Below are positions 20,107-55,280 of a stretch of DNA of 64,000 nt, piece by piece. The notes under the pieces were generated by a model. It did not search any database. It saw only the letters and a list, made by a program, of their open reading frames with translations, and was not told where the DNA came from. Every line of letters starts with the position of its first letter. Position 1 is the stretch's first letter. The translations under genes and the position numbers were made by a program. Location of the stretch: the NCBI GenBank assembly GCA_043228905.1, contig JBHGNT010000010.1:16244001-16308000 (forward strand), in the 5' to 3' direction. This stretch comes from Azolla caroliniana (Eukaryota > Plantae > Polypodiophyta).

Positions 20107-20555
20107 CCCACCCCCTCTGAACTTGCACATTGGTTGTGTAAAGTTCATCCAAAATCTTGGAAACACTCTTCATTCCCTTTCTGATATGGATGTTCCCTCC
20201 AACATTCTTTGTTTCTTTCATGGTCGGGCCTCACGGTTAAGAATTAGACCGTCTTCCTTCCATCCTGACTCTTGATCCTCGCAAAACTCAAACCATCATC
20301 AATCACCTTTGTTTCCATCCTTACTGCGGTGATGTATGGTTGACCAAGGATGACGGGGTAGGTTGATCAATCCTACACAAAGAAATTTTGATCCACCGAC
20401 ACATCTCCAATTGTTACTTTCACACTAGGACATGCACCAAATAGATCCTACGTCGTCTCTGTCACAGCTCTTATCTTCCACCCATGACTCTTGTCGATCG
20501 ACCACCTTCCTTTATTGTGAAATTCCGACAACGTCATGTTAATTTCTAATCCACG
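20107..20555 (-). mobile_element. second gypsy protease remnant
   Basis: Minus strand reads EINMTLSEF...GWKIRA...ACPSVKVTIGDVSVDQNFFV...VILGQPYITAV, paralogous to 18290-18520. Confidence 0.65.
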
Positions 20556-23500: not shown

Positions 23501-24514
23501 ATGTCATCATTTAGAATATAGTCTTGCGCAAAAAGATTCGCTCACGCCTTTATCTTCTTATTGGTTTCTCTTCCGCCTTCTTCTTCTATCTTCTTGTCTC
23601 CTCTTTTGTCTCCTTCTTAGTTTCTATCTTCTTTTTGTGTTCATCTTCTTCTATCTTCCTATTTTTCTCTTCTATCTACCTCTTCTATCTTCATTTTCTT
23701 CTTCTTTACATCATTTGTCTCGGCCACTCTATTTTTTGGTTTCTATTCGTGTTGATCCTACTTCCAGCTCCCCGTCTTGTGTCTCATGCAGGTTCTTCCT
23801 CCTGTTTCCGTTTGTCTGCTTTCTATTTGTTTGATGTTGTTCTTTCTTCTTTTACGTGTGTGTCGTCTCGATGGTCTGGCAACGACGAAATGGCGTGCCA
23901 TTTGCCATTTGTCGTCTGTCTTCCCGTCTGTCACGGACACACCAAGTGCGGACTATGACAGAGCATGGATGACGAGGCTACGAGCGACGAGCTACGAACT
24001 TGGAGCTAGAAGTGACGAGGTTAGGAACTCTGGAAGTTATGAGCGACATGAGAGCATGAAGAAAGAGATGAAGGAGACAAGTTGGGGCGAAACGAGAATA
24101 CTAGATTGATGTGTCAATGACTGGCGTTGAATCCCCTTGAAAGGGACCAAGGAGGTTACAAGTATTTATACAAATTCTGAGATTGAATAAGTCTAGAATA
24201 TACTCGAGAAATATCTCTAGAACATACCCGACAAATATCTCTAGAAATATACCTGTCTAGAATACACCATAGAATATTTCTAGAATATTCTGGAATGTAT
24301 TGTATGCTAGAATATATAATACTAAACTAATATATATAATTACATGCTCATATCCAAATGGTTTAGCATGATGTTTTGTTGCAGTGAGGTTGTAGGTTCA
24401 ATCCTCGCCAACTATGTATTTTGTCACGATTGTGTCGTGACATTATCCTCCCCTTTATGGTCGCCTTTTCATGGTGTACGGGTGAGCGGGAAGGGGTGCA
24501 CCAGCGGACGGTGT

Positions 24515-24714: not shown

Positions 24715-25139
24715 TGTCAGAACCAAGGATAAAAGATAGAGTGATGGAAGAAGGATATTAGAGAACACAAGAAAGGAACGAAATACTAAGAGAAGAACGG
24801 ATGTATAAGATAGAGAAAGAAAGAGAATGGATACAAGATATGTAATGAGAGCTAAAGACTGGTGTTGATTCGAATTGATTTGAGAATACATGTATGCCCT
24901 TATTTATAGGTTCCTATAGAACAGCTTAGAGATTTCTAGAATGTTCTAGAATGTTCTAGACCTAGAATGCTCTAGGACATTCTAGAACATTCTAGAATAA
25001 TCTAGAGGTTTTACAATAATCAATGTAATACAAGAAGTAGCTTTTATTGTTTCATATAACAATAAGCTATCTTAATGGTTGAGGTTTTAAAGTATGGATT
25101 ACAAGGTTTGAGGTTCAAGTCCGGGTGACGCCATAATGG

Positions 25140-28100
25140 TCATGTGTTCATGACACTATCCCTCCTTCGAGAACGCCGAGTGGAAGTCGGCGTTAACATT
25201 GTTGGGCCGGGCTTGTTTGGATAGTGATGATGGAAGTCGTTGACCAGAGCTTCAACATTACAAACGTTATCAATGGGTTCCCAAGTGCGATCACTCGGAG
25301 GATAGCCAAGCCAATCAACTAGATAATAAAGCTTATTGCGCACAATCTTAGAATCGAGAATAGCAGCTACCTCGTATTCGGGGCCGTCCACAAGTTGTAC
25401 AAAAGGCGGTGGTGGCACGACACGATTAGGAATTAAAGAGGTGCGACAAGGTTCCAAAAGAGAGCTATGAAAGACAGGGTGAAACCGCATATATGCAGGA
25501 AGGTTAAGACGAAATTTTGCATCATTAATCTGCGTCGTGATGACAAAAGGACCTAAGCGTTGATAGTCAAGCTTAGCACACGGTCGGGTAGTCTTGATGT
25601 GACGACGAAGCAACCATACACGGTCACCAACCTTAAACGGAGACTTAAGACGATGTCGATCGGCATTTGTCTTATTGTGTGCTTGCGCTTTCTGAAGATA
25701 TGACGATAACTCGAACTGGATTTGTTGTAGTCGGTGGAGGTGATGCGTCGCACTAGGGTTTCGTGACACCTCGGGAAGATCCAGTATACACCATTGAGGG
25801 TGGTTGCCAATGTAGGCAAAGAAAGGTGTAACTTTGGTAGAAGAGTGAACCGTGCTGTTGTATGCAAACTCGGCAAGATGTAAAATATTACTCCAATCAT
25901 CTTGTTGATAACTAATGAAACATCGACGATATTGCTCGAGCATTTGATTTGTGCGCTCTGTTTGTCCGTCAGTTTGGGGATGATAAGCCGAAGAGAGTTT
26001 GCAAGAGATTTTGAGGCCTGCCCATAGGTGCTTCCAAAAGTGTGAGATAAATTGAGGACCTCGATCGCTAATAATATCATTCGGGAGACCATGATGGCGA
26101 AACACTTTATGCATAATGAGATCTACAGTTTCTTCACTATTGATGGTCTTTACAGATGGTACAAAATGTGCCATCTTGGTGAACCGATCCACTACTGTTA
26201 AAATAGTATCAAAGCCTTTGGAAGGTGGCAGATCTGTAATGAAATCCATAGAAATAGACTGCCATGGCTTGTTGGGAGGGGGTAATGGTTGTAGTAAGCC
26301 ATAAGGGTGATGCCGAGGTATTTTGGCGCGACAACAAGTGTCACAAGTGTGAACATAATCTTTGACAAATTTTTGCAAGTGAGGCCACCAAAATGAACGT
26401 TTCACCAGCTCAATGGTTTTGGAAATACCAAAATGTCCAGCCATGGGGGCATCATGACAATGTTCCAACACTTGAAGTCGGGGTGATCCGTGGGGACGTA
26501 AAGGAGATTCTTGTAGAAGAGTAAGCCATCTTGCCACTTGAAGTCCTGATAATGTTGAGATGACCCTGGCAATGTGGAGCAAGATGGACGACTTGAACCA
26601 CAGTGGGCTAAGACATCCTTAGCGAAATCATCTGAATGAAGTTGTTGCCGAATAGTGTCAAGAAGGGTAGAATCAAGTGGCGTAGCATAAATTGTTGTTA
26701 CCTGTAGCTTTGATGGCCCGAGGAGAATTTGCTTTTGATTGTCAAAGGCCGGATCTCCAGGTCAAAGTGCTAGATACGAACGCCGAGACAAAGCATCTGC
26801 TTTCCCTTGTTGTTTTCCGGGGCGAAAAATGATCTTGAAATCGAAATGCGTTAGAAATTGGGCCCACCGAGCTTGGCGTCTATTTAATACTCGAGTTGTT
26901 TGAAAATATGTGAGATTTTTGTGATCACTATAAATGATAATCTGATGAGGTGATCCTTCTAGAAAATGACAGCATTGCTCGAATGAGTCGACCACAACCA
27001 GTAACTCCTTGTCATGCAACTCATAGTTTATCTCCGAAACAGTAAATTTTCTCGAGTGAAACGCGACTGGATGTGTCTGCCCGTCCTCGCCTGGTTGCGA
27101 TAGGATACTCCCCAATGCAAAGTCCGATGCATCTACCTCAATAGTAAATGGCTTTTCACTATCAATATGTGCTAGGATGGGTGCTGATGTGAATGCCTCT
27201 TTCAGCTGCATAAAAGCCTTGTCCGCTTCGATACTCCAAAAAAATGCTTGATTTTTCTTGGTGAGTTGAGTAAGGGGAAACACAATGCTTGAATAATTAT
27301 GTATGAATTTGCAATAGAAGTTCGCAAATCCGAGGAAACACTGGACATCCCGAACTGAGCATGGGGGTTTCCATTCCAATATTGTTTGGACTTTTGTTGG
27401 GTCCATGAAAACACCCTGGGATGAAATAGTGTATCCCAAAAATTCAACTTGTTTGCAATCAAAACTGCATTTCTCAAGTTTGGCATAAAGACCATACTTC
27501 CTTAGGCGTTCAAGTACTTGCCGCACATGTATATCATGCTCCCCCTGTGTTTTAGAGTAAATCAATAGATCATCTAGGTAGATGATTAGAAAAATATCCA
27601 AGAAATCCCGGAAGATGTCATTTGCCATATGTTGGAATACTGCAGGTGCATTTGTGAGCCCGAAAGGCATGACTGTATACTCGAAATGACCATACCGAGT
27701 ACGAAATGTTGTTTTCCACTCATCTCCCAGCCGAATTCGAACAAGATTATATGCACCCCTTAGATCAATTTTGGTAAAATGCTTTGCCCCACTAATGCGT
27801 TCTAAGAGATTGGAGATTGAAGGTAAAGCATACCTATTCCTTATGGTGACTTTATTTAAGCCTCGATAGTCCACGACCAAACGAAGGGAGCCGTCCTTTT
27901 TCTTCACAAAAAAGATAGGGGCACCAGCTGGAGACTTTGAATGTCGAATAAACCCATGTGCAAGATTTTCCTCGATGTATTCTCGAAGAACCTCAAGCTT
28001 AGTGGGTGATAAATTGTAAATCGGACCCCACGGTGGCTCTTTTCCTGGTTGGAGATCAATAGGACAGTCGTACAGCCGATGCTTTGGAAGAACACTAGCT

Positions 28101-28768
28101 TTGACTTTATCGAAAACATCAGCATAGTCTTGATATTTTTTGGGAATTTGGATGTCTGAATTCCCTTGAGTGACACTAGAAGGTGTCACTGATACTGCAA
28201 ATAAGAAAAGCTCCTCCTTGCCTCCCACTTGGCACAATTGTTGCAATGTGATGGCTGAAATTTGATGAGAAGGATATGGTGCATCGGTAGAACTATATAC
28301 TTTAGGAGGATAATCCCGAGTTCGATCCTTGACAATGATATTTTCCACTAAAGGGCACCTAATTTCTCGCTTCCTCCAATCGATTCTAGGGTTATGTAGC
28401 TCGAACCATGGCAAACCGAGGACAATTGGATGCTCAGGACTACGGATAATGTTAAAGGAAACTACACATCCTAAATCACCCAAGAGTATGTGTATTGGCT
28501 CAGACTCTTCAAATATCTTCCCGGAAGCTATGGGGCGTTCATCAATCACTGCTACGGAAACTGGACAAGGAAGTGTATGCAATGATATTTGGTGTTTTTG
28601 GGCAAAATCTCTATCCATGAAACAAGAATGGGCTCCAGTATCTAAGAGGGCTTGGACTTGAAGTTGACAATTGGGTGTCCTAACTTGTACTAGGGCTGAG
28701 AAGACTCTACTGACATGCTTGGAAGAAATGGAACCCACACTAGGTTGTACATATCTAGGGTTGTCCAA
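25140..28768 (-). pseudogene. I1 pol (PR-RT-RH-INT-chromodomain) with stop and frameshift near 26580-26765
   Basis: LLDTGA, YLDDLLIYS, DASDFALG, HDAPMAGHFG, SMDFITDLP, DGQTERTN, YEVAAILDS..YYLVDWLGY..TWEP. Confidence 0.93.
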
Positions 28769-28794
28769 CCAAATGGCTCCTATTTTGGCCGGAC

Positions 28795-29958
28795 TTATTC
28801 GTTTGACTCCTCTTCTAATTGGCTTAGGACTTCAAATTTATTGGACAAGGGTGGATTATTCATAATATTAGATTCACTAACTACTTCTAAAATGTTGGAC
28901 TCATTTTTATTGTCATAGTGAATTTGATTTACCTGACGTCTCGGCCTACAGGAGCAATGAATGGCTATATGTTCTAGACCTCCGCAATATAAGCATAGGT
29001 GGTTTGCTCGATGACGTTGCTTCTCTTCGTCTGACAATGGTCCTCGTCGTTGAGTCATATTGATCTCCATGGGTGCAAGACTGTCCATTGGGACTGGACT
29101 ACGTGTTTGCCTTGGAGATGGAGCAGGGCTATACATTTGCCTTGGGGATGATTGCGCCGTTACTGATGCATAAGTTGGTGTGAATCTTGATCTTGTTATT
29201 TGTTGTTGTCGCTCACATCGTCACTCAAAAAGGCGATTATCACACCATATTGCTCGACTAATAGCTTCTGTAAGTGACCTTGGATCCTCGGGGAAGGTAA
29301 GAAGTAAGTCTTTGACATCACTACGAAGGCCTGAACAGAATTGCTCCATTAGGGATTGTTCATCCCAAGGAATATCGTTTGCGATGAGACGGAAATTGGC
29401 AGCATATGTCGAAGCTAGTTGATCACCTTGACGAAGTGTACGGATCTTGTTGATAGTTGTTCTCGCCCCATCAGTATCTCCGAAACAAGCCTTAAATTCC
29501 TTGATAAATTCCTCGAAATTATTCAATAGAGGAGAATTGGTCTCTAGCAATGGAGCAAACCATGACAACGATATGCCAGTCAATAAGGTGCCCACTAGCC
29601 CGACTCATGATGCATCTGTTGGATAACGCGCGGGATGCATTTGAATCACCAACCGTACTTGATTCAAGAAACCTCGGAAATGCACCCTCGACCCATCAAA
29701 TTTAGCTGGGAGGCTAATTTTGGGCTCCTTGATAAGTCCCTGACCTTCAACCCTTTGTTGTTGTAACACTACGATTGTCGACTCTAACTGTTGCACTCGT
29801 CACGTGAACTCCTCTTGTTGTTGTTGCTTCTCTATAGTAACCTTTTGTAGATCCCCAAGTAGACGTTGATTCTCTACTTCAAGAGATGCGAACTTGGATT
29901 TAAGGTTCTCCATTTCTGCAACAAGGGTGAGATATTCTTCTGAGTTAATGGCAGCCAT
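28795..29958 (-). pseudogene. I1 gag interrupted by TGA stops
   Basis: EPKISLPAKFDG, LRQGD...YAANF, LCLYCGGLEH; collinear with the intact gag at 43934-45061. Confidence 0.9.
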
Positions 29959-30024: not shown

Positions 30025-30029
<5 letters not shown>

Positions 30030-30659
30030 GAATCAAACTGTCAGAACCAAGGATAAAAGATAGAGTGATGGAAGAAGGATATTAGAGAACACGAGAAGAA
30101 AGGAACGAAATACTAAGAGAAGAACGGATGTATAAGATAGAGAAAGAAAGAGAATGGATACAAGATATGTAATGAGAGCTAAAGACTGGTGTTGATTTGA
30201 ATTGATTTGAGAATACATGTATGCCCTTATTTATATGTTCCTATAGAACAGCTTAGAGATTTCTAGAATGTTCTAGACCTAGAATGCTCTAGGACATTCT
30301 AGAACATTCTAGAATAATCTAGAGGTTTTACAATAATCAATGTAATACAAGAAGTAGCTTTTATTGTTTCATATAACAATAAGCTATCTTAATGGTTGAG
30401 GTTTTGAAGTATGGATTACAAGGTTCGAGGTTTGAGGTTCAAGTCTGGGTGACGCCATAATGGCCATGTGTTCATGACAGCCCTCACCGGGAATTAGAAC
30501 ACGAACAGGAGTGAACGACCATGCGGCCCTCAACGAGAACTGGAAGAACAAAGAGCAAAGGATTGCAGGTGAATCGGTCGACTTGACTTCTTCTATCATG
30601 AGAGATAAATAGTTGAGGTTGACCCAAAACACGACACAAATGGTAGCGCTAGCGAGAAA

Positions 30660-30967: not shown

Positions 30968-31402
30968 TATTGAGAGATCAAGCTCAACTAGAGTTAGTTA
31001 GTTAGTCAACCATGTAACTTCGTAGTTACCTAGATAGAATCTAGTTAAAAGTGTTGACTATATAGTCTTAAATAGGACCTTGTACTTAAGTAGGATATTC
31101 TAGATCCTCCACTCCCAGGGTCATTTAATATAGGACTTACATGGTTGTACCTATATTCTACTCACACATGTGCACCTTTGCACATGAGATGTATATATAC
31201 CTCATTGTGGGTATTTTTGTATTTGATGATGCTAATTTAATATAGAGTTAATCATCCTCCATCTTGTGTTGTTCATAAGTGTTAACTTCCTCTCTCTCTT
31301 TCTCTCACACACATACACACATATCACTTAATCTTCCACTTATTAACTTAATCATATAATTAGGTACTAATTAACTCTTGCTTAATTACCTAATTCTTAA
31401 CA
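30968..31402 (+). mobile_element. copia solo LTR
   Basis: TATTGAGAGATCAAGCTCAAC...TTCTTAACA flanked by TSD CCCCC; removing it restores GTTGTAACCCCCACCGGAACT as in the neighbouring repeat unit. Confidence 0.85.
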
Positions 31403-32279
31403 CCCCCACCGGAACTATGAAGGTGAGTGATCAAAATCAATCTGTTTGATGAAGACGACAAGAGGTGATGAAAATGATGATGTCGAAAACAAGGCAATGA
31501 AGATGAGGAAGCATCTCTAAAACCAACGATGTTGATGACGGTAACTCTAGAAGCAAGGACGGTGACAATAGTAACTCTAGAAGCAAGGGTGATGATGAAG
31601 ATGGGTAATGCTTCCAATTGGAAGAGATTCAAACTGTCAAGGACACACCAATCACGGACTATGAAGGAGCACGGATGACGAGGCTATGATCGATAAGACT
31701 ACGAGCATGGAATAGGCAGTGACAAGGCTAGGAATTGTAAACGTTATGCGTGATGAGACTATGAACTTAGGAAGCTATGGAGAGCATGAAGACAAAGATG
31801 AAGAAGGAGACAAGATGGGGTGAAACGACAACACTAGATTGATGTGTCAATGATTGGCGTTGAATCCCCTTGAAAGGGACCAAGGAGGTTACAAGTATTT
31901 ATACAAGTTCTGAGATTGAATATCTCTAGAATATACTCGAGAAATATCTCTAGAGTATACTCGTCTAGAATATACCGTACAATATTTCTAGAATATACTA
32001 ACAACTAGAATATTCTAATTCTGAAATGTATTATATGCTAGACTATAGAATGCTAAACTATTATATACAACTGCATGCTCATATCAAAATGGTTGAGCAT
32101 GACATATTGTTAATGTGAGGTTGTACGTTCAATCCTCACCAACTATGTATTTCATGTCATTGTGTCATGACACCGCCTTTTCGACCCTTCGTCTCTTTTT
32201 GTCTGGCTGTCTACTCGTCTTTCCGGCCATCGTCGTTCGCCGACCGTCTCTGTTCGTGGTCATCTCTATCTAACGACTC

Positions 32280-38100: not shown

Positions 38101-38558
38101 GAGAGACATATGTCATTGCTATGTGGGTCGTTGATGTCATAGACATATGCCACAGAGGAAGGTAGGGATTGAACCCAAGACCTCATGGTCTCTATTGGGC
38201 AAACCCTACCACTTGAGCTACATATGCATCCTTATATTTAATTCAACTTCATATAGTGTAGATTGAACATTGGAAGTTCCTAGCTTACATGCATTCTCAT
38301 TCTCTAGCTTGCATGCTTCCTCATGCGTACTCTATTGCATGCATCCTCATGCACTATTTCTAACTGGCTTACATAGCCCTACCCTCTTGTATAAATACTC
38401 ATGTGCACCTTGATTCTAATCAAGGTGTACAACACAAGTTACGGATTCTATAAGTTGAGTTCTTGTTCTTTTCCTCTCTCTTGTTCTCCAGTCTTATCTT
38501 CATTCTACTCTATTATACTTGTCCGTGACAGTTTGTACACCTTCCTTTTCTTGCTACC

Positions 38559-39596
38559 ATGTCCGGCTCCGTCGACAACCTAAACCAAATCATGGCAGCC
38601 TTGCAACAACTTCAACTAGAGAATGAAATCCTTCGGGAATCATTACGAGAGTTGCAATCCGGCACTTCAAGAAATCCACTAGCCGTCGAGTCACAACCAC
38701 CGTCGACACCTAGCCCGACCATGTCCTCTTCTCATCCATATGTCCTTGAACCAACCATTAGCCTACCCGACAAATTCAATGGCACGAGGGCGTATCTTCG
38801 TGGCTTCATCAACCAAATTCAGCTTATCATCCGATTACAGCCCCAACGGTATGCTAGCGACTTTTCTCGGGTTGGGCTTGTCGGCACGCTTCTCTCTAGG
38901 CCGGCGCAAGCGCGGTTTGCACCCTTGATCGAGACCTCATCCCTTCTCTTGGAGGACTTCACCGCTTTCATGGAGGAGCTCGAAGCGACATTTGGCAAGA
39001 TAGATCGGCGACGAACGGCACTCACAGAGCTTTATTCTGTCCAACAAGGTTCACGTCCTGCCTTGATCTACGCCTCAGAGTTCCGCCAGATTACCTGTGA
39101 TGTTAGTTGGGATGACCAAGCCCTATGCGACCATTTCTGTCGTGGTCTCTGAAATGACGTCAAGACTCTTCTCTTAAACTTCCTGGAGCCCACATCGTTG
39201 TCTCATGTAATCTCCCAAGCTGTCCTGTGTGACAATCGTCTTTTCGAACTTCGTCAAGAAGAACGGGGGACTCGCGGGTCTCAGGCTTCTTCTAGGAACG
39301 CAGCAATCACTAGGCCCTACTTGTCACCCACACCAACCTTACCATCAGCTAGTGAAAACCATACCACAATGGAGGTCGATTCCCATACCCCGATGGAGAT
39401 CAACCATGCTCGGTTCCAACCATTAACTGAAGCCCAACGCCAACATCGTTGGGACAATGGACTCTGTCTCTATTGTGGCAACCCCAGCCATGTCATCTGC
39501 CACTGCCCTGTGCGAGGCCCTCGACACCAATTCCATTGTGCATGTCTTGCGGAGGTTCCTCGACAACAGGAAAACGACCAAGTCCGGCTGCAGTAA
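38559..39596 (+). pseudogene. O2 gag with internal TGA at 39150-39152
   Basis: EPTISLPDKFNG, QQGSRPA..YASEF, LCLYCGNPSHVICHC zinc knuckle. Confidence 0.9.
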
Positions 39597-40143
39597 GAGC
39601 CATGCCGTTGGACGCTTCCCGTTACTCACCTTCTCCAGTCCGAACCGCCATTAGGAGGGTTTTCTTTGCAAGTAAGTCTTTGTTTTGGTTCGTATTAGAG
39701 ATTAGGTACTAAAGTAAGCATAAAATAAGGATATATCAATGATAGATCTAGAAAGAATAGAGAGAAAAGAGAGAAAGAAGGGTGCCGATCCACCCGACCA
39801 CCCCCGAGCGAAGGGATCGAGACGGACTCGAGCCTCGATCGGCGTCCCATACTACCGCCTTGGCGTCGAGTCGTACCTGGACGATAGCGCGCTTGCTACA
39901 AGAGTCGTTCCACTCACGGACAGAGTCTCAACGTAGTCAATGCATGCCCCAATGAGGGTAGCTAGGCCTCTTATTTATAGTAATTCTCAAGGCCCCCAGC
40001 CATGTTCACACTTGGCCTCATGGGTTGTCTCAATCCCGAGGATTAAAAGTAATCCTCCCCTTCTTTAGACTCTTTGTTTAACCCTCACACTTATCCACGT
40101 GTATAGAATACTACGACAATTCTCACCACGGGATATTATATGG

Positions 40144-43100
40144 TCATGCCCGTAACATACTCCCCCTCTTTAAAACATTGCACTCTTGCAATGGAAAGTT
40201 AGGGAAGTTAGTTCTTAGAGTCGTTTCGCGTTCCCATGTGGCATCTTTGATTGATTTATCCATCCATTTTATTTTAAATTCTCGGATTTCCTTAGCACGT
40301 AATTTTTTTGTTTTAACATCGAGAATTCTTTCTGGTACATGTGGTTTAGAAGATAAATCTTCAGAAGTAACCAGAGTTTCAGTTGTAACTGTATTGTCGC
40401 CAGAACCTAGAAGTTCTTTTAGACGACTTACATGAAAGACTGGATGGATTCCAACACCATCGGGAAGAGCGAGACGATAGGCTGATGATCCAATGCGTTT
40501 GAGGACTGTAAAAGGTCCACAAAACCGTGGGGCTAACTTAGCGCACTTACCCGTAGACAATGTCTTAGAATTGTGAGGTACACGTAAAAATACCTTCTGT
40601 CCAGGGCTGAATACACGAGGTTGCCTGTGATGATCGGCATAAAAACGCGCTCTATCTTGAGCTGTTTTTATATTATCCCGTGCAATATGCAACATATCTT
40701 GCATATCCCGAAGAAAGTTTTGCGTACTTCGCAACTCATCATGATGTATATTAACATCAATCGGGGCTCGTGGCTGAAATCCATACATCAACATAAAAGG
40801 ACTATATCCCGTCGACGTATGCTTGGAGCTGTTATAAGCAAACTCCAAAATTGGGAGGTAACGTTCCCATTTTGTTGGTTTTGCACCAACGTATGCTCGA
40901 AGCATGTCCTCAATAATTTGATTTACTCGTTCTGTCTGTCCATCGGATTGAGGATGATCCGTGGAGCTCATGCTCAACGTAGTTTCTAACTTCTTAAAGA
41001 CTTGCGTCCAGAAGTCACTAGTAAACTTCGGATCTCGGTCACTCACGATATCCATCGGTAACCCGTAAAAACGAAATAACTCATCAACGAATTGGTAAGC
41101 CAATTCAGGAGCTGTTACCGTGGTTTTAGTAGCAATAAATCTGGCCATTTTAGTTAGTCTGTCAACCACAACCCATATGGCATCATGACCTTTTTGGGTG
41201 CGAGGAAGGCTAACAATAAAATCCATGGATATACTTTCCCACTTATTATTGGGAATGTCCAAGGGATGTAAAAGTCCTGCGGCTTTAAGTCGCTCGGCTT
41301 TGTTAACCTGACATTGGTGACATTTAGTCACATAGCTATGTATGTCAGGACGCATCTTAGGCCAATAAAATTGAGTGGAGATGAGAACGAGTGTACGATG
41401 TATTCCAGGGTGCCCTGCTGAGGGTGCATCATGGCATTCAAAAAGAATTCTCTTTTTGACCTCAGGTAAATCTGGAACACAAACCTTCCCATTACGGTAG
41501 AGCAGACCGTTAGCAATGTGGAAGTATTCCTTCGAGGGTGTGGTGGTGTCTGTTCCAGACTCGACTCTTGCCCAGTATTTTGCAAAATAATTGTCATCAG
41601 GATACTTTCCTCGAAGGTGATCATAAAGATCTGATGTTATTTCAGTGAAGCTAAGCATGTTAACTTCACGGATGCGACTTAGTGCATCAGCGACAGTATT
41701 CATGGAACCTTTACGATATCGTATGGAAAAATCAAAGTCCTGGATGAGATCAGCCCATCGTGCCTTACGACCTTTCAGGTCTTGTTGGTCACAAAAATAT
41801 TTCAAGGACTCGTGGTCCGTAGTTACCACAAAGCGATTTCCATAAAGATAATGGCGCCATGTTTTGAGCGCATGTATAACCGCAAATAATTCCTTTTCTT
41901 GAACGGTATACCGACATTGAGCAGAATCAAGTTTCTTACTCTCGAATGCTATTGGTTTACCATCTTGATACAAGACAACACCTATAGCATAATCGCTTGC
42001 GTCGGTTTCAACCTCAAAAGGTTTTGAAGGATCGGGTAAAAGAAGTGAAGGAGCCTTGCATACCAAGTCCTTGAGTTCCTTAAAGGCGAGGTCTAGTGTA
42101 GCATTCCACACAATAGGTTTTGTAGACTTACGCGTTTGACCTTTTAGAAGATCAGTAAACGGCGTCGTCAATTGTGAGTAATTACGAAGAGATTTTCGCA
42201 AAAATCCGACAAAACCAAGGAATGATCGAACTTCTCGAATATTCCGAAGAGTGGGCCAAAGTTTGATTTTCTCGATGCGAGAAGGATCAATTTCAACTCC
42301 TCGTTCGGTTATGAGATGTCCAAGATAAGTAATTGATTTCTTGAAGAACTCACATTTTGAGATCTTCGCGTAAAATTGTTTGTCACGCAATATTTGTAAA
42401 ACAAAGCGGACATGTCTAGCATGTTCTTGTAATGTACGGCTATAAACTAAAATATCATCTAAGAAGATAACGACAAATTTTCCAAGTTGTTCTCGGAAAA
42501 TGTCATTCATTTCTTGTTGAAATGTAGTCGGAGCATTGGTCAAACCAAAAGGCATAACCAAAAACTCATAATGACCGTAGCGCGTACGAAATGCTGTTTT
42601 AGGAACATCGTCCTCACTTATTCGTATTTGATGGTAGCCAGTACGGAGATCAAGTTTCGTAAAATACCGAGCTCCCTGGAGACGGTCAATTAGATCGTCA
42701 GCCCGGGGCAATGGGTACGAATTCTTGATCATCACTTTATTCAAGCGTCGGTAATTAATACACATACGCCATGTGCCCTCTTTCTTTTTAACCAAGAGAA
42801 CTGGTGCACCCCATGGAGATTTACTATAACGTATATAACCCATTCGTAAATAGTCCTTAAGTTGCTTAGCTACCTCATCCTCTTCAGATCGACTTAGGCG
42901 ATACGGAGGTATACTAATGGGTGCAATGCCAGGTACAATATCTATATGATGGTCTATATTACGTTTAGGAGGTAAACCATCGGGTAGTTCACTCGGAAAA
43001 ACATCACGAAAATCGTTTACGATTTCATCAAGTTGTTTTTGTTCAAAATATGTTAATTGACCCGAGACATTATCGATATTGTAAACGTGAATGTCCGGAT

Positions 43101-43416
43101 CAAGTACACAATAAAATAACGTAGAACAAGACAACTCGGATATTGATGGACACGAGGAAACAATCGAGAGGGATTGTTTTGTTACACATTGAATAAAATG
43201 CGTACAATCGTTGAGTACAAAAGAAATGGAATGGCGAACCCAATCAATAAATAAAGAAGAGCTTTTATTATAAAACCAGGGATAACCCAGTATTACATCG
43301 GTGGTACTAAGATTCATTACATGGAAGTCTACTTCCTCTATATAGGTATCAATAGAAATTCCTAAAGAATGAATCGCCCCGTTGATGTGTTGTACTCTTC
43401 CATCAGCCAAGTGCAC
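40144..43416 (-). CDS. N2 pol (PR C-term, RT, RNase H, integrase, chromodomain); upstream in-frame TGA at 43453-43455 inside the protease
   Basis: 1090-aa ORF: [53 protein letters not shown]...ATWE; LFDSGSSHNF in same-frame ORF 43453-43773. Confidence 0.92.
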
Positions 43417-43933
43417 CGTGTAGGTGTGATCACTTACGGTGGGTTGGATTCCTCATATCTGTACCAAACGATCATTCACAAAATTGTGTGAGCTTCCCGA
43501 ATCAAATAAAAATTGTACGGGAGATCCATTGATATACCCGTTTGCACGTAGTAAATCATTGGGACCCAATACATAATGAGGGAAAGAACATTGACAATTA
43601 CTCAAATGATGTGTATAGACCTGAAGGACATTAGGAATCTGACCTTTATGATCTGTAGCTTTAGGTTTGGCGTCGTGCTCTTTTCGTTGGAGCTTACGAC
43701 ATTGCTCTTTTGTATGACCCTTCTTTTTGCAGAATACGCAAAAAGGATGTTGTCGCTTATAATCGCGATCCATGAATTCGTTGGGTGTCTTGCGTTTCCC
43801 AACGAATTGCGACTGCTTAGTCCCGGGCGCTTCGTTGGGTTTGTTATGGTCCTTCTTCGAAGTGCGTTGATAGCCCTAGCAATAACCCTAGCAAGCTTTC
43901 TTCTTTATCCTTCTTTCTTTTTCCCCCGCGGTT

Positions 43934-45061
43934 ATGGAGTCGGTCAGCAAGCAAGAGTATATGCGTGTCCTTTCGGAGCTCGATATGCTCACCACTAAGT
44001 TTGTGGCATTAGAGCAAGAAAATCAAAGGCTACTCGGGGATCTTCAACAAGTCAGTACTGAGAAAGCTCATCAATATGAGGAGTTATCACAACGGGTTCA
44101 TCAACTTGAGGCTACTATATTAACATTACGAGAACAAGCGGCGGGGGTTCAAAACTCCCCAAGGGAACCAAAGATTAGCCTCCCTGCCAAGTTTGATGGT
44201 ACCAGATCTCTCTTTCGAGGTTTCCTGAATCAAGTTCATTTGGTGATTCAGTTACATCCCAATCGGTATCCAACTGATGCTGCCCGTGTGGGATTAATAG
44301 GAACCTTGCTAAGCGGTACAGCGTTAGCATGGTTTGCACCACTTCTTGAGAAGAAATCACCATTACTGGAGGATTTCGAGGCATTCGTTAAGGAGTTTCA
44401 AGCTAGTTTTGGAGATACGGATAGCACTAGGACTGCAATAAACAAGATTCGAAGACTCCGACAAGGAGATCGTCCCGCTTCAGCTTATGCCGCAGATTTC
44501 CGTCTCTTGGCATGCGACATTCCTTGGGATGAGGCAGCCTTAATGGATCAATTCCGTCAGGGTTTGCGTAACGATGTCAAAGATCTTCTTCTTACTTTCC
44601 ATGAAGATCCAAAGTCTCTTACTGAAGCTATTAGCCGAGCTGTGCGATGTGATAATCGCCTATTTGAGCGACGTTCTGAACGTCAACAAATGTTACGCCG
44701 CCAACCGGAACAGACATACGCTTCTATAGTCACCACACCGCCACAAGGTTCTAGACCCGTTACGAGGGATGGTCCCACTCCGATGGAAATAGAGTCGACA
44801 CAACGTCGAGGGCCCTTATCAGATGCTGAGAAACAACGACGTCGGGCGCATCGCCTATGCCTCTACTGTGGTGGTCCAGGACATATAGCTGTGAATTGTC
44901 CACATAAACCCAGGCGTCAAGTTTACCAAGTAAGTGCACATGACAACCCTACATCAAGTTCTACTATCACTTCTAATAACTTAAGTACTAAGCCTACTAG
45001 CCCATGCCATGAGAATAGATTTGATGTCTTGAGCCAATTAGAGGATGTGTTAAACGAATAA
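43934..45061 (+). CDS. N3 Gag (PEG10/Ty3-like capsid plus CCHC knuckle)
   Basis: 375 aa: EPKISLPAKFDG, WFAPLL, LRQGDRPASAYAADF, LCLYCGGPGHIAVNC. Confidence 0.92.
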   Translation: MESVSKQEYMRVLSELDMLTTKFVALEQENQRLLGDLQQVSTEKAHQYEELSQRVHQLEATILTLREQAAGVQNSPREPKISLPAKFDGTRSLFRGFLNQVHLVIQLHPNRYPTDAARVGLIGTLLSGTALAWFAPLLEKKSPLLEDFEAFVKEFQASFGDTDSTRTAINKIRRLRQGDRPASAYAADFRLLACDIPWDEAALMDQFRQGLRNDVKDLLLTFHEDPKSLTEAISRAVRCDNRLFERRSERQQMLRRQPEQTYASIVTTPPQGSRPVTRDGPTPMEIESTQRRGPLSDAEKQRRRAHRLCLYCGGPGHIAVNCPHKPRRQVYQVSAHDNPTSSSTITSNNLSTKPTSPCHENRFDVLSQLEDVLNE

Positions 45062-48000
45062 GTCCGGCCAAAATAGGAGCCATTTGGTTGGACCATCCTA
45101 GTTATGTAGAGTCAGTACCTAGTTGTGGTTCCATTTCATCAAATCAAGTTAGTAGAGTTTTTTCTGCACAAGTCGAGCTTAGCACATCTACAGGTCATCG
45201 CGCCCTAGCCTCTGCCCTCCTAGATTCCGGAGCCAATTCTTGTTTCATGGATCGCGAGTTTGCATTGACTCAAAACATCATCTTGAAAAAACTCCCAAAC
45301 CCAGTAGCTATAGGAGTCATCGATGGTCGCCCTATAGCATTAGGAGATATAGTCGAAGAGTCTGAACCAATTCGTGTAGTCCTAGGTAATTTGGCTAGTG
45401 TCATCTCATTTAACATCATTAGTAGTCCGGAGCACTCTCTAGTTCTTGGTCTTCCTTGGTTTGAGTTACATAACCCAACCATTGATTGGAGAAAAAGAAC
45501 TATTGAAGAGGTCACCGTACAATCCAAGTCTCTTGAAGCTCCAACTAAGGATCTAGGATCCCCCACAATTTCAACAATCTCTATACATCAATTACGAGAG
45601 GATGGAAGAAAGGAAGACATGATGGTATTTGCGGTTTTAGCAACTCCCTCATCTAGCTCACAAGAATTGGGGGTCCAACTACCAAAGAAGTACATAGAAT
45701 TCTCCGATGTGTTCGATAAGGTGAAGGCTAATAGACTACCAGAGCATCGACCATATGATTGCCCAATTGATTTGCAGCCAGGAAAAGAGCCTCCATGGGG
45801 ACCAATTTATAATCTTTCACCCACGGAGTTAGAGGTTCTTCGAGAATATATCAATGAGAACTTGGCAAATGGTTTTATCCAACATTCAAAATCTCCTGCT
45901 GGTGCACCCATCTTTTTTGTTAAGAAGAAAGATGGTACGCTTCGTATGGTCGTGGATTATCGAGGCTTGAATAAAGTGACCGTTAGAAACCGATATGCTC
46001 TCCCATTGATCTCAAGCCTTCTAGAACGCCTCAGTGAAGCAAAGTATTTCACGAAGTTAGATCTTCGAGGTGCCTACAACCTTGTTCGAATTCGTCCTGG
46101 GGATGAATGGAAGACGGCGTTCCGCACTCGCTATGGTCATTTTGAGTACACAGTGATGCCTTTTGGCCTCACAAATGCACCAGCAGTCTTCCAACATATG
46201 GCGAATGATATTTTTCGAGACTTCCTCGATATCTTCATCATTGTTTACCTGGATGATATCTTGATCTACTCAAAAACTCAAGAAGAACATGATATACATG
46301 TTCGCCAAGTTTTGCAACGGCTACGAGAGTATGGTCTCTATGCAAAATTGGAGAAGTGTAGTTTCGACCAACGTCAAGTGGAGTTTTTGGGGTACATAGT
46401 CTCTTCAAATGGCATCTCTATGGATCCATCAAAGGTTCAAACAATTTTGGATTGGCAAACACCACAGTCCGTGCGAGATGTGCAATGTTTTTTGGGGTTC
46501 GCAAACTTTTATCGCAAGTTCATCAAAGACTATTCAAAAATTGTGTTGCCCCTCACTCAACTGACGCACAAGAATCGATCATTTGTATGGAGTATAGATG
46601 CGAACTCTGCATTTGAGGGTTTAAAGCAAGCATTTACATCCGCACCAATCTTAATCCATGTCGATCCAATGAGGCGCTTTATACTTGAAGCTGATGCATC
46701 GGATTTCGCACTCGGAAGTGTACTATCCCAAATTGGTGATGATGGTGAACTGCATCCGGTGGCTTTTCACTCACGAAAATTTGAAGCCGCAGAAATCAAT
46801 TATGAGATTCACGACAAAGAGCTTCTTGCCATTGTGGATTCTTTTCAACAATGGCGTCATTTTCTGGAGGGTTCTTCTCAGCAGATTATTGTCTACAATG
46901 ATCATAAAAATCTAACATACTTTCAAAGTGCTCGAGTCTTGAATCGACGACAAGCTCGTTGGGCGCAGTTCTTAACTCGTTTCGATTTTGTAATTCTATA
47001 TCGCCCTGGGATGCAACAAGGAAAAGCAGATGCTTTATCTAGACGTTCGTATATGGAACTTCAACCTGGAGAGGCCGCATTTGAAAGCCAAAAGCAAATC
47101 CTCTTAGGTCCTGATCGTCTACGAATAATGGCAATGCATACCATCAACACACCGGGAGATTCAAGGCTTCTTGATTCCATTCGTGAGCAAATTGCGACTG
47201 ATGCGTTCGCCCAAGAGGTTTTGAGCCATATTATCCCAAATCGTGCATCTAGCTCCCAAACTCAAAATCCTCGTCTAGACTACACCCAGTTTAGTTGGCA
47301 TGATGGGTTACTTTTTCGACAAACTCTCTTGTATGTGCCTGACGGTCCTTCTCGACTCAAAGTCATGCAACAATGTCATGACACACCAATGGCGGGACAC
47401 TTCGGCATCCACAAGACTTTTGAGTTGATTTCTCGCCGATATTGGTGGCCACGGTTTCGCCATTTTGTTACGGATTATGTTCGTAGCTGTGATACATGTT
47501 GCCGATCAAAAAAGCCTCGACATCATCCATATGGCTTATTACAGCCAATGCCTATTCCGGAGAGCCCATGGAAATCTATTTCCTTGGACTTTATTACGGA
47601 TCTTCCACCTTCCAAGGGATTTGATTCGATTCTCACGGTTGTCGATCGTTTTACGAAGATGGCACATTTCCTTCCATGCACAAAGACCATTACTAGTCAA
47701 GAGACAGCTGATTTACTCATGCGGGAGGTGTTTCGCCATCATGGTCTTCCGGATGATATTATCAGTGATCGGGGTCCCCAATTCATCTCGAAATTTTGGC
47801 GGCACATGTTCAGACTCTTACATACTTCTTGTAAACTCTCTTCCGGCTACCATCCAGAGACTAATGGGTAGAGTGAGCGCACCAACCAAACAGTCGAGCA
47901 ATATCTACGTTGTTTTGTCAACTATCAACAAGATGATTGGGTGGATTTACTACCTTTGGCAGAATTTGCTTATAACAACTCCGAGCATTCTTCTACTGGA

Positions 48001-48693
48001 TATTCCCCATTTTTTGCAAACATTGGGTACCATCCTCGTTGGACGATGCTTGAACATCCTGAACTCCCAAAAAACCCAGCTGCTGAAGATCGGCTCACTC
48101 GACTCCAAGAAGTTCAGGATATGCTTTTGCATCATTTATGTGAAGCCCAAAACACTCAAAAGAAGATTGCTGACCGTCATCGGCGTGATTCATCGACTAC
48201 ATTTCAAGTAGGCGATCGTGTATGGCTCTTACAAGGTAGCATTAAAACGACCCGACCTTGCTACAAATTGGATTATCAACGTTTTGGCCCATATGTCATA
48301 AGTGGTAAGATCAATGATGTGACATTTCGTCTTGATCTTCCTCCTCATATGCGTCTTCACCCGGTCTTCCATGTTTCACTTTTGGAGCCTTACACAACGA
48401 GCTCTATTCCGGGTCGTGTTACACCTCCCCCACCTCCAATTGACGTTTCCAATGGCTCTGAATATGAGGTTGCCGCTATCCTCAACTCCAAGATCATTCG
48501 CAACAAACTATACTACTTGGTTGATTGGTTAGGCTATACACCTAATGATCGAACATGGGAGCCTGCCGAACATCTTGCCAATGCCTCCGACATGGTTGTT
48601 GCATTTCACAACCAATATCCTCATAAACCAAGTCTGAACTCTTTTCTTCCGACTCGTGCAACTCGTCATCGAAAAGGGGGGATAATGTCATGA
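45049..48693 (+). pseudogene. N3 pol in the -1 frame (PR-RT-RH-INT-chromodomain), single in-frame TAG at 47869-47871
   Basis: LLDSGANSCF, YLDDILIYS, ADASDFALG, HDTPMAGHFG, SLDFITDLP, YEVAAILNS..YYLVDWLGY..TWEP; ORFs 45088-47871 and 47941-48693 share one frame. Confidence 0.92.
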
Positions 48694-49032
48694 AGACATA
48701 CATCTTGGCTTATCATGACATTCATCTTGGCGAACCAGGAATCGAACCCATAACCTCTTGGTTTACATATTGTACTTTAACCATTGTAATAACATATGTG
48801 AGATGTAATCATAATAATTATATGTTTAGTTATTACGAGATATTTAGAACATTCTAGAATCTAGAATGTTCTAAATATCTCGTAATAACTAAACATATAA
48901 TTATTATGATTACATCTCACATATGTTATTACAATGGTTAAAGTACAATATGTAAACCAAGAGGTTATGGGTTCGATTCCTGGTTCGCCAAGATGAATGT
49001 CATGATAAGCCAAGATGTATGTCTTCATGACA
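48686..49032. repeat. perfect 347-bp palindrome made of the LTR U3 half
   Basis: 173-bp arms are exact reverse complements around a single central base at 48859 (ATTCTAGA-A-TCTAGAAT). Confidence 0.95.
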
Positions 49033-49742
49033 ATAGCGAAGAACTATCTCAACGGCCTCTTCGAAGGATTTTGGATCCTTATCGTGCACTATCCAGTGAT
49101 AGTCCGAATTGGGGATGCCATTGACAAAACAAGCTATTAACCAACTGTCCCCTTCTAGACCCGATTTTTGGATTTGGGTTCTAGCATGGTGGACATAATC
49201 TTCTAGCGAGGAAAACTTCCTGCTAGAGAGGTTCATTAAAGCTTGTGCTGCCTCGGTTCGAGAGGGAGGTTGTAGAAATTGACCCTTGAAAACTGTGACA
49301 AAGTCTGTCCAGGTCTCGGGCAATCTCCCCAAAGTTCGGAGCCCACGCCACCAAGCGGCGGCCTTACCCCCTAGTTCTCGGCCGACATATGCAATCTTCG
49401 TACTATCTGGGGTGGGATAGAGCTCAAAATGAGACTCCCATCGGCCCAGCCACGTGCAGATTGCTTCTTCGGTTCTTTCCTTTTTATCTCCCGTAAATGG
49501 CTTTACGACAAAGGATGGTTCACCCTGACGCTCATCAGGTCTATTAATCTCATTTTGGAGACTAATGACTCGTGCCTCGAGAGCACTTTGAGATTGCCGA
49601 AATTCGGTCAACTGCTGCGCGGTTGAACTAAGGAAATGTTGTACTTGTAAAATATACGCCTCAATGGACATTGTCCCAGGAGGATTTCCTTGAGGTCTTT
49701 CCGCTTGAGCGGAGGGCATCGGGTCGTTATTTTGAGCCATTG
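49033..49742 (-). pseudogene. N2 gag N-terminal part, interrupted by N3
   Basis: VKPFTGD, LGGKAAAWW, WTDFVTVFKGQF retrotransposon-gag motifs; zinc knuckle FCVFCKKKGH lies at 43453-43773. Confidence 0.85.
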
Positions 49743-50936
49743 AATGATTATTTCTGGCAAAGAAATAAGATAAGGTCAGACAAATAGTCATAACATCTTG
49801 TCGTGGTGTAAACATATCATGGGCAAACATTAATCGATATCATGATCTCACGTCAATACCCCTCTAGACGTATGAGATGAGGTTCAAGATCAGGTTACTA
49901 TGGTAACACAGAGGTGTTTTAAAAACCATGGGGGTGACAAATGAATGCCTTTCCCTGATCTCTATATCGATTTTTTTCATGGCGGCTCCCCGAGGCTCAA
50001 CCATGTATGTTCGCGTCATGAATAGTTTATACACGAAAAAAATGTTAACAATAACTATGTTTCTGTGCCCACATATGTGGTTTCGGCTCTTTAAGTCCTA
50101 TTACGAGGACCCCGAAGTGCACTTAGACCTAAAGTCTAAACATGTATTATAGTCATATGTATCAACGATGTTGTATGGTGTTGGTCATATTTGAACTCGA
50201 GACCTCGAGGACAAATACATTAAACACTTGAGCCAACCAAGTAGATTGCGCGTCTTGAATGTTTAATGTTTGAGGCGTATTCGAGATATGCGAGGCATTT
50301 GCCCCTATATGTTTTTTTTAAAAGAAACATATAGGTCAAGTGGCCTTATTTCTCCCTCATTTATTACCCACTATGGTTGTACGCTACCTACCCTCAAGCC
50401 TCGTAAGTACAATGGCATATGCCAAAGTGTAACCTAATGGTCAAGCCGAATGAGCCCTTGTGTCTTCGTAGGCTCATGTGGCCCATCACATGGTCACGTC
50501 ATTACGAATGGCGCTCGTAAGAACGAGCTCATGGTGGCATCGTATCCATGTAACGAGGGGAGATGTTGGATACGTGTGTCATTAGAGCGACCCTACTTGA
50601 TGTGGATCAAGCCCGACGTATTCAACATCATTTTGGCTATACTAGGTTCGTTACGTAACGAAAGATCAAAGTGACCAACGGGAATTGCAACAATAAAAAT
50701 TGTTGATAAAAGGGATGGTGACAACGCCATTCTCACAAAAATGTGAGGACGGCCACCAAAATCCTCTCCCCAATTAGGAAAACATTTGATATGAATCACG
50801 TAATCTAAAATATACACATATGTCAATATATCACATATATACGATCAGAGACGTATATAAGTGACCACATATGCGTATACTAAATGAATCGTTTTTTTTT
50901 ATATAGCCAACAATGATGTATTCAGGATACGTAATC

Positions 50937-51178
50937 GAGGCATATACCTCTACGCACACGAAACATCCGAAAATAAGGTTAAGCGTAATTCGCAATTGAG
51001 GTATTGACCTCTTACGCATAGTAAATCCAACGCATATCATTTCGAACGAAGCGAGGTATTGACCTCGTACGCGAACGTAACATATGTTCGTGAACGTAAT
51101 ACGCAATTGAGGTAATAACCTCGTACGCATACGACACTCATCACATATGATTTATATGTCAAACGAGGTATTGACCTC
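50937..51178. repeat. five 14-bp hairpin motifs at about 56-bp period in the N2 5' UTR
   Basis: GAGGTATTGACCTC-type at 50937, 50998, 51053, 51109 and 51165. Confidence 0.85.
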
Positions 51179-51904
51179 GTGGACATATGTAAACGTTTAA
51201 GATAACCAATTAAATACCACGTCAACATCATTGAATATATGAAAAAAAAACTACATATTAAGTATACACATGTATAGAAGGGAGAAGAAAAATTAGATAA
51301 AAAATTAAGGAAAATTTACCGAAGTTCTTTCGCTAATCCTTGTCTGCATGAAGGCGACCGCACAACGATCAATCGCCATCCCACGCGAAGACAAAAAGAA
51401 AACCAAAAGAAACGTTAGTACATAGGCTCTGATACCAAATATTAGAGATTAGGTACTAAAGTAAGCATAAAATAAGGATATATCAATGATAGATCTAGAA
51501 AGAATAGAGAGAAAAGAGAGAAAGAAGGGTGCCGATCCACCCGACCACCCCCGAGCGAAGGGATCGAGACGGACTCGAGCCTCGATCGGTGTCCCATACC
51601 GCCGCCTTGGCGTCGAGTCGTACCTGGACGATAGCGCGCTTGCTACAAGAGTCGTTCCACTCACGGACAGAGTCTCGACGTAGTCAATGCATGCCCCAAT
51701 GAGGGTAGCTAGGCCTCTTATTTATAGTAATTCTCAAGGCCCCCAGCCATGTTCACACTTGGCCTCATGGGTTGTCTCAATCCCGAGGATTAAAAGTAAT
51801 CCTCCCCTTCTTTAGACTCTTTGTTTAACCCTCACACTTATCCACGTGTATAGAATACTACGACAATTCTCACCACGGGATATTATATGGTCATGCCCGT
51901 AACA

Positions 51905-54900: not shown

Positions 54901-55280
54901 CGACTACAAAAAGTTAGGCCCCTTCCATATCCTCGAGCGTGTTAACCCAGTCGCCTTCCGGTTAGCGCTTCCCCCCACATTTCGGCTTCACAATGTTTTC
55001 CACATCTCTCTCCTCGAACTCTACATCCTTCTCGCATTCTGAGACGCCAACCTCCTCTACCGCCACCCGTGGAATTATCGACAGGTGAGGAGTATGAGGT
55101 TGACCGGATCCTCAACTCGCTTGCATCGACGACGACTTCAATACTTGGTCTTATGGAAAGGTTACCCTCTTTCGGATGCCACATGGGAACCAGTTACACG
55201 CTTACAAAATGCACCGGAGGCAATTCGCATTTTTCACCAACAATACCCCCATAAACTGGTCGCGGGTGTTAGGAGGCGGC
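51905..55280 (+). pseudogene. O2 pol (PR-RT-RH-INT-chromodomain), multiple stops and frameshifts
   Basis: [71 protein letters not shown]. Confidence 0.92.

What the first reader, a model, noticed from the sequence alone, without database searches (positions are those of the whole stretch)
38390..38543. Tf1-style self-priming signature co-varying across three LTR families
Seen: none of O1, I1 or O2 has a recognisable tRNA PBS. After the LTR end each has GT followed by 11-12 nt complementary to an LTR segment starting exactly 32 nt after the first T of TATAAATA. O2: AAGGTGTACAA (38422-38432) with TTGTACACCTT (38533-38543), perfect. I1 (minus): AATTCGAATCAA (24876-24865; one change in the 5' LTR copy) with TTGATTCGAATT (30036-30025). 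O1 (minus): AAGGGGATTCAA (31871-31860) with TTGAATCTCTT (31632-31622), two G-U pairs. Three different sequences that each stay complementary is compensatory covariation. Known: S. pombe Tf1 primes reverse transcription with the first 11 nt of its own mRNA, and this is predicted for related Tf1/sushi-group elements. Inference: the mechanism operates in these plant elements and predicts their transcription start to the base.
Basis: partly seen in the sequence, partly recalled or inferred. Interest (0 to 1): 0.7.

Follow-up and report, generated by a model that had tools for sequence, protein, structure and literature searches.

The report
Self-priming fern retrotransposons with tRNA-promoter relic
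Three families of fern jumping genes lack a tRNA landing site and carry there 11-12 letters that pair with their own predicted RNA start, a match kept through many letter changes in relatives, so they likely start DNA copying with their own RNA as the yeast element Tf1 does, a route already predicted for moss relatives.

Summary
O2, I1 and O1 are nested Ty3/gypsy-type elements in a fern genome. None has a tRNA site; after CA-GT each has 11-12 nt complementary to an LTR segment 32 nt after the TATA box. One correction: O1's two G-U pairs are one private change plus a G-run length variant. Covariation is far stronger than three cases. Of 33 testable related loci, 25 pair perfectly and 6 have one defect; 22 distinct primer/PBS combinations give 142 of 154 Watson-Crick pairs at variable positions (shuffles 79 +/- 7). 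Within O2's family both partners of one pair differ together. Self-priming is the best explanation, but the start site and the cleavage are untested. It is not new as a mechanism: Neumann 2019 predicted it for 83% of moss and club-moss Tcn1 elements. New as far as searched: a fern host, the comparative proof, a short inner stem without a detectable third duplex, and an antisense tRNA-type A-box/B-box at the U3 tip in 26 of 32 LTR starts, of unknown use.

The parts
38135..38530 (+). O2 5' LTR (TG...CA), TSD GTTGA
38390..38397 (+). O2 TATA box
38422..38432 (+). O2 predicted self-primer (11 nt, starts at C|A, TATA+32); nt 7 (38428) differs from the family together with its partner
38434..38446 (+). 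O2 5' arm of the predicted inner stem (after a bulged C)
38521..38532 (+). O2 3' arm of the inner stem: U5 end plus GT spacer (38531-38532)
38533..38543 (+). O2 PBS, complementary to 38422-38432; nt 5 (38537) is the partner of 38428
38165..38220 (-). O2 antisense tRNA-type A-box ... AGGT ... B-box in U3
38559..39595 (+). O2 gag (one stop); pol continues after the I2 insertion, 51910-55280, frameshifted
55282..55614 (+). O2 3' LTR, lacking its first ~55 nt and the PPT; primer copy 55506-55516 identical
30039..30479 (-). I1 5' LTR; primer copy 30203-30192 with one private change; B-box at + 30436-30446
30025..30036 (-). I1 PBS (12 nt) after CA-GT
24715..25155 (-). I1 3' LTR; primer copy 24876-24865; antisense A/B box at + 25066-25122
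25156..29958 (-). I1 gag-pol: Gag, protease, RT, RNase H, integrase, chromodomain with aromatic cage (several stops)
31635..32172 (-). O1 5' LTR; primer 31871-31860; B-box with one change
31622..31632 (-). O1 PBS, with a private change at 31625
23929..24442 (-). O1 3' LTR; primer copy 24138-24127; antisense A/B box at + 24349-24405. O1 has a short non-coding interior
43875..49032 (+). I3: fourth related element, no 5' LTR or PBS, intact-looking gag and -1 overlapping pol, palindromic half-LTR; antisense A/B box 48793-48738
39693..51904 (-). I2: tRNA-Met-primed chromovirus (negative control), host of I3

Best explanation
These are fern Ty3/gypsy chromoviruses whose primer site pairs with a segment of their own LTR instead of a tRNA end, and they likely prime reverse transcription as Tf1 does: transcription is predicted to start at the C|A 32-33 nt after the TATA box, the first 10-12 nt would fold onto the primer site, and RNase H would cut them free as the primer. 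A conserved bulged C and a short inner stem (R with the U5 end and GT spacer) are predicted to set the cut. Because plus-strand synthesis would copy the primer into the new primer site, a change in the primer is predicted to be written into its partner, which explains the tight covariation. The GT spacer would leave a 2-nt overhang for integrase to trim (inferred). Separately, U3 carries an antisense tRNA-derived A-box/B-box that likely acts as a TFIIIC/Pol III element and plays no part in priming.
For: Shown: perfect or near-perfect pairing in the window. Of 79 related loci, 33 held both independently defined anchors: 25 perfect, 6 one defect, 1 two, 1 three; all 33 start at C|A, pairing stops there in 32 of 33, and 27 of the 29 with a TATA have it at 32-33 nt. 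22 distinct combinations: 142 of 154 Watson-Crick pairs at seven variable positions, shuffle mean 79.2, sd 6.6, maximum 110 in 100,000. Nine perfect 12-nt types need at least 12 double changes and are spread over the Gag tree. Within O2's family: 38428 reads A instead of T in 99-100% and its partner 38537 reads T instead of A in 97-99% of depth in four runs; locus L079 holds both in one contig. L021/L022 show the intermediate expected if the primer changes first (G-U). O2 leader folds at z = -4.0, 0 of 200 shuffles as stable. RT/RNase H present; named RT relatives are fungal, amphibian and plasmodiophorid at 58-65% against 47% for I2. Known: Tf1 mechanism (PMC7175516 passage); Tcn1 prediction (PMC6317226).
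Against: No start site, cut RNA or strong-stop cDNA was observed. The third duplex of the Tf1 'pretzel' was not detected: longest helix 5.26 bp with the own downstream sequence against 5.10 with other loci's (a crude test). Eight of 33 loci have defects; L060 and L064 have the TATA 38-40 nt upstream, and L060 and L076 fold poorly (mean duplex probability 0.02 and 0.24). 46 of 79 loci could not be tested, and metagenome contigs of repeats may be collapsed mosaics. The motif anchors favour loci that resemble the window's elements. Host tRNAs could not be scanned (no genome). The A/B box has no significant Rfam or ARAGORN tRNA hit and no shown function.
Confidence: 0.88

Rival explanations
1. The pairing is real and selected but serves packaging, dimerisation or translation control; priming uses some other nucleic acid.
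For: Folding and covariation show a helix, not its use. The third Tf1 duplex was not found.
Against: The helix sits exactly where a primer must sit, 2 nt from the LTR end, with its free 3' end pointing into U5, in 33 of 33 testable loci; no TGG tRNA site is present; the same geometry is proven as priming in Tf1.
Confidence: 0.06
2. A host tRNA fragment cut in the T-loop primes synthesis, since several primers contain T-loop-like letters; the LTR match is a by-product.
For: The commonest primer types end in letters resembling a tRNA T-loop (resemblance recalled, not tested against host tRNAs).
Against: At least 13 different perfect types exist, several with no T-loop likeness (O2, L064, L067, L078), each matching its own LTR. 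Known half-tRNA sites are constant within a lineage and confined to Ty1/copia (PMC6317226).
Confidence: 0.03
3. Self-priming occurs, but transcription starts upstream of the paired segment and the primer is cut out on both sides, so the start-site prediction fails.
For: L060 and L064 have the TATA 38-40 nt before the paired segment; no RNA data.
Against: 27 of 29 have a 32-33 nt spacing, all 33 begin at C|A, and complementarity stops at that A in 32 of 33, as expected if nothing lies 5' of it.
Confidence: 0.07
4. The antisense tRNA-like segment in U3 is a docking site on the element's RNA for host tRNAs (as Ty3's U3 pairs with tRNA arms), or a neutral relic of a SINE insertion, not a Pol III/TFIIIC element.
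For: On the genomic RNA the segment is complementary to tRNA D- and T-arm letters; AGGT beside the B-box is also conserved, 18 of 19; Ty3 uses U3 in this way (PMC5371799 passage).
Against: Spacing between the boxes is tRNA-gene-like (35-36 nt) while the spacer is 38% identical against 77% for the box region, which argues against a neutral relic; self-primed elements need no tRNA.
Confidence: 0.35

Closest known systems
Plant Tcn1 clade of chromoviruses (Novikova 2010, PMC2864245; Neumann 2019, PMC6317226)
   Same: Chromodomain with aromatic cage, 5-bp TSD, overlapping gag and pol, no tRNA site, PBS complementary to the 5' LTR starting 0-5 nt after the LTR (83% of 1500 Tcn1 elements predicted self-priming), RT closer to fungal elements than to other plant chromoviruses.
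   Different: Host is a fern; both papers report Tcn1 only from mosses and club-mosses, and Novikova's PCR survey found none in ferns and no self-priming signal in SM-Tcn1. The passages read give no covariation, TATA spacing or U3 A/B box. Formal placement beside Tcn1 references was not testable.
Tf1/Tf2 of Schizosaccharomyces pombe, Tj1, Tosmo1-3 (Tf1/sushi group)
   Same: Primer at the predicted RNA 5' end pairing with a PBS just 3' of the LTR; inner duplex beside the PBS; RNase H present.
   Different: Primer mostly 12 nt (29 of 33), also 11 and 10, against 11 in Tf1; fixed 2-nt spacer; third duplex of the 'pretzel' (bioRxiv 10.1101/2022.12.06.519325 passage) not detected; no experimental proof.
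Helenus and Cassandra TRIMs (Kojima 2024, PMC10886601)
   Same: Small-RNA-gene promoter boxes kept inside LTRs without a working cloverleaf.
   Different: Those are non-autonomous elements under 1.3 kb, tRNA-primed, thought to be Pol III-transcribed. Here the boxes lie in protein-coding elements with a TATA promoter, point away from the element's transcript and sit at the U3 tip. Kojima notes that 'not a few' Repbase LTRs hold tRNA-like pieces, so the motif may be on file unanalysed.
TAR lineage of Ty1/copia (Houba, Osr-1)
   Same: Predicted self-priming in plants (89%).
   Different: Different superfamily and domain order.

Membership tests
Tf1/sushi group | Ty3/gypsy domain order with C-terminal chromodomain | tested here: met
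   Pfam: Gag, protease, RT, RNase H, integrase, SH3_Tf2-1, Chromo in I1 and I3; O2 has the same in pieces. O1 is non-coding.
Tf1/sushi group | No tRNA PBS; PBS complementary to own 5' LTR | tested here: met
Tf1/sushi group | RT groups with fungal/vertebrate chromoviruses | tested here: inconclusive
   Named relatives are fungal, amphibian, plasmodiophorid (58-65%), I2 is on a long branch (47%); backbone unresolved and no named Tf1/sushi reference in the tree
Tf1/sushi group | Inner duplex (R with U5 end) | tested here: met
   Three core pairs in 28, 30, 31 of 31; a further pair G-C 11, A-T 17, G-T 2 of 31; variable part 97 against shuffle 90.1, p = 0.006, but slid registers score as high
Tf1 'pretzel' structure | Third duplex (sequence 3' of PBS with U5) | tested here: not met
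   5.26 against 5.10 bp control; described for Tf1 and several, not all, group members
Tf1/sushi group | Transcript starts at the primer's first base | not testable with these tools
   Only contigs were served, no raw RNA reads
Tf1/sushi group | RNase H cleavage releases the primer | not testable with these tools
   Needs biochemistry
Tcn1 clade | Chromodomain aromatic cage | tested here: met
   Y, W, Y read by eye in I1, I3 and O2 translations; first and third absent in I2
Tcn1 clade | 5-bp TSD and overlapping gag/pol | tested here: met
   TSDs; I3 pol in the -1 frame overlapping gag
Tcn1 clade | Monophyly with Cryptococcus Tcn1, PpatensLTR and SM-Tcn1 | not testable with these tools
   Reference sequences not available; supplement with sequences too large to read
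Helenus/TRIMp3 | Conserved tRNA A- and B-boxes in the LTR | tested here: met
   26 of 32 U3 starts with at most one B-box mismatch, shuffles 1.5%; TGG 35-36 nt upstream in 22 of 32
Helenus/TRIMp3 | Short non-autonomous element with tRNA PBS | tested here: not met
   I1, I3, O2 encode Gag-Pol and have no tRNA site

The most novel reading that the evidence does not exclude
Fern LTR retrotransposons of at least two self-primed lineages, plus an unrelated element at window 20105, keep an outward-pointing tRNA-gene promoter (A-box, AGGT, B-box) at the tip of U3. It is maintained by selection as a TFIIIC-bound insulator or Pol III promoter, so every insertion and solo LTR plants a Pol III element facing the host flank while the element itself has shed all dependence on tRNA primers.
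Probability: 0.35. Interest if true: 0.7.

Novelty: new variant of a known kind. Interest (0 to 1): 0.43.

Why it matters
Self-priming is proven only in fission yeast and was inferred for plants from a single-element complementarity screen. Double changes across families and within one family are much harder evidence, extend the mechanism to ferns where this group was reported missing, and fix a start site, primer length and cut site that CAGE or cDNA-end mapping can test to the base. The U3 A/B box, if bound by TFIIIC, would be a way for high-copy autonomous elements to carry chromatin boundaries or Pol III promoters through large fern genomes.

Tried and rejected
No whole genome is held, so no copy census and no host tRNA scan. 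Sequencing runs: no RNA holder listed, contigs only, so no start-site test. Viral contigs gave no relative. Rfam on the window and on four U3 segments and ARAGORN at default gave no significant tRNA hit; the best was a tRNA-clan match of 12.3 bits, E 8.2, on O2's segment; relaxed ARAGORN was noise. A tRNA cloverleaf for the U3 segment is rejected: outer T-stem pairs 11 and 7 of 19. The idea that the U3 box pairs with the self-primer is rejected by eye: it does not follow primer changes. I3 could not serve as a fourth test (no 5' LTR). Loci L063, L070, L071, L074, L075, L077 share a long different leader with no matching anchor and were not testable. Cluster look-ups gave no organism names; PDB gave Ty3 RT as best hit only; the Atlas gave no answer. 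Rows dropped before counts: 46 of 79 loci in the pairing test (12 too short upstream, 19 no PBS anchor, 15 PBS without the R motif; one of the last, L078, pairs 11 of 11 with a variant motif); 13 of 32 U3 starts in the box profile (weak box, too close to the edge, or near-duplicates). Literature searches for a description in ferns or of the U3 box found none; primary Tf1 papers were not held, and Additional files 1 and 3 of PMC6317226, which may list each Tcn1 self-primer, could not be read.

Full report
Setting. The window is fern DNA: its PPR gene (4484-7009) has its best named matches in Adiantum nelumboides (57%) and Ceratopteris richardii (54%) over 99% of its length, against 42% or less for listed lycophyte, moss and gymnosperm proteins. 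Self-comparison and Pfam give two nests: I1 inside O1 (minus strand) and I3 inside I2 inside O2. LTR pairs differ by 2.7% (O2), 1.2% (I1), 12.9% (O1) and 0.9% (I2) and have 5-bp target duplications. I1, I3 and O2 encode Gag, protease, RT, RNase H, integrase and a chromodomain with the aromatic cage; O1 has a short non-coding interior; I2 is a different chromovirus with a tRNA-Met site.

Observation. All strings and the 32-nt offset are as stated. O2 pairs 11 of 11, which 0 of 5000 shuffled LTRs match; I2 reaches only 5. I1's 5' copy has one private change. O1 needs a correction: contigs of four DNA runs read G at 31625 in 94-99.7% of depth and lack one base of the G run in 12-44%, so the two G-U pairs are one private change and a length variant, not the family state.

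Covariation across families. An unbiased search for inverted matches upstream of gag returned the same arrangement again and again. With primer and PBS then defined independently by flanking motifs, 33 loci were testable: 25 perfect, 6 with one defect, 1 with two, 1 with three; 46 were not testable. All 33 start at C|A, pairing ends there in 32, and 27 of 29 with a TATA have it 32-33 nt upstream; primers are 12 nt in 29, 10 in 3, 11 in 1. Over 22 distinct primer/PBS combinations, window included, 142 of 154 variable positions are Watson-Crick; dealing PBSs out at random gives 79.2 +/- 6.6, maximum 110 in 100,000. This shuffle ignores relatedness, so I also counted events: nine perfect 12-nt types need at least 12 double changes, and types change along the Gag tree.

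Covariation within a family. Laying four DNA runs (three studies) on O2 showed 38428 read as A in 71969/71970, 47448/47448, 42232/42666 and 23365/23471 of depth and 38537 as T in 10125/10201, 8106/8178, 6605/6705 and 2160/2218 (40 rows shown, 39 not). These two places are partners in the duplex: the window has T-A, relatives A-T. No other primer or PBS place was among the rows shown. A rough chance estimate assuming six near-fixed differences in 491 nt is 5e-4. L079 carries both letters on one contig.

Mechanism. Known for Tf1: the first 11 bases pair with the PBS and RNase H cuts after base 11 (PMC7175516, passage). Here the O2 leader folds with the 11-bp duplex, a bulged C, two pairs with the GT spacer and a 9-bp stem (z = -4.0); mean duplex probability is 0.8 or more in 31 of 36 leaders. 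The inner stem's core is conserved, with A/G after the bulge tolerated as A-U or G-U and one G-C/A-T exchange, though its outer part does not beat slid registers. A third duplex, part of the Tf1 'pretzel' (bioRxiv 10.1101/2022.12.06.519325, passages), was not found. Inferred: the plus strand copies the primer into the next PBS, so primer changes drag the PBS along; L021 and L022, with a new primer letter and an old PBS letter between C-G and T-A neighbours, fit that order but could be mosaics. Start site, cleavage and integrase trimming of GT are all untested.

Prior art. Neumann 2019 (PMC6317226; passages and Additional file 5 read; files 1 and 3 unreadable) predicted self-priming for 83% of 1500 Tcn1 elements from moss and club-moss with the same kind of screen. 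Novikova 2010 (PMC2864245, passages) found Tcn1 in mosses and Selaginella, not in ferns. Tj1 is a further predicted case (PMC4600332, passages). PMC8282616 (passages) and PMC7466625 (listing only) added nothing. So the mechanism is known and its plant occurrence predicted. RT identity and a quick tree place these elements among fungal, amphibian and plasmodiophorid relatives and away from I2, with O2 and I1/I3 in separate sub-lineages; Tcn1 membership is likely, not shown.

An added feature. A B-box scan of both strands of the window gave 9 hits, 6 of them at the U3 tip of O1, I1, I3 and O2, antisense to the element, and one in another LTR at 20105. Among 32 distinct U3 starts, 26 have an antisense B-box with at most one mismatch (shuffles 1.5%) and 22 have TGG 35-36 nt upstream, the spacing of a tRNA gene (numbering recalled). 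In 19 non-redundant rows, chosen for their B-box, AGGT before it is exact in 18, the A-box letters are conserved, the spacer is 38% identical and the T-stem is not kept. It is missing or doubtful in the distant loci L060, L064 and L078. Rfam and ARAGORN do not call it a tRNA. The nearest described case is Helenus (PMC10886601, parts 1-4 of 6 read), limited to short non-autonomous elements. A TFIIIC/Pol III role is my preferred reading; tRNA docking as in Ty3's U3 (PMC5371799, passages) or a SINE relic are rivals. Searches found no description in autonomous fern elements.

Earlier scan notes held self-priming cases in other groups and a different tRNA-site story in this genome; none covered this finding and none was used as support.

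Verdict. Observation confirmed with one correction; interpretation supported at about 0.88; a variant of a known kind; interest 0.43.

Noticed in passing
window 43875-49032: I3 has no 5' LTR or PBS and ends in a perfect 173-nt palindrome of the first part of U3 (48686-48858 and 48860-49032), turning at a TCTAGA repeat, yet is flanked by a clean ATAGC duplication. It may be an aberrant cDNA made by a plus-strand fold-back or template switch and then integrated.
   Followed up: partly
window 19440-20105, minus strand: Another LTR (PPT, then TGTCA) between two copies of a protease-like region, unrelated to I1/I3/O2 by self-BLAST, carries the same antisense A/B box (19986-20041). Lineage and LTR end not determined.
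   Followed up: partly
window 55260-55282: O2's 3' LTR lacks its PPT and first ~55 nt, including the A/B box.
   Followed up: no
window 30970-31400, minus strand: A probable solo LTR (TG...A ends, G-rich flanks) sits inside O1's interior, beside 138-nt, 46-nt and 30-nt tandem repeats.
   Followed up: no
window 30436 region: I1's 5' LTR has a short duplication between the A- and B-boxes that the 3' LTR lacks.
   Followed up: no
window 24925-25010, 31925-32000, 48845-48875: U3 regions are rich in palindromic TCTAGA repeats that can form hairpins (spurious Rfam miRNA hit).
   Followed up: no
window 45050-45061: I3 gag/pol overlap with a likely -1 frameshift site just before the gag stop.
   Followed up: partly
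L063, L071, L074-L077: A related Gag family with a long, different leader and no matching PBS anchor; in L076 a different self-primed LTR lies about 700 nt upstream. Priming mode of this family is open.
   Followed up: no
window 8300-21600: Nested Ty1/copia elements, one with a tRNA-Met site near 21276 (minus) and one with a different site after 13317.
   Followed up: no
window 4484-7009: Intact-looking PLS-type PPR gene, used to identify the host group.
   Followed up: partly
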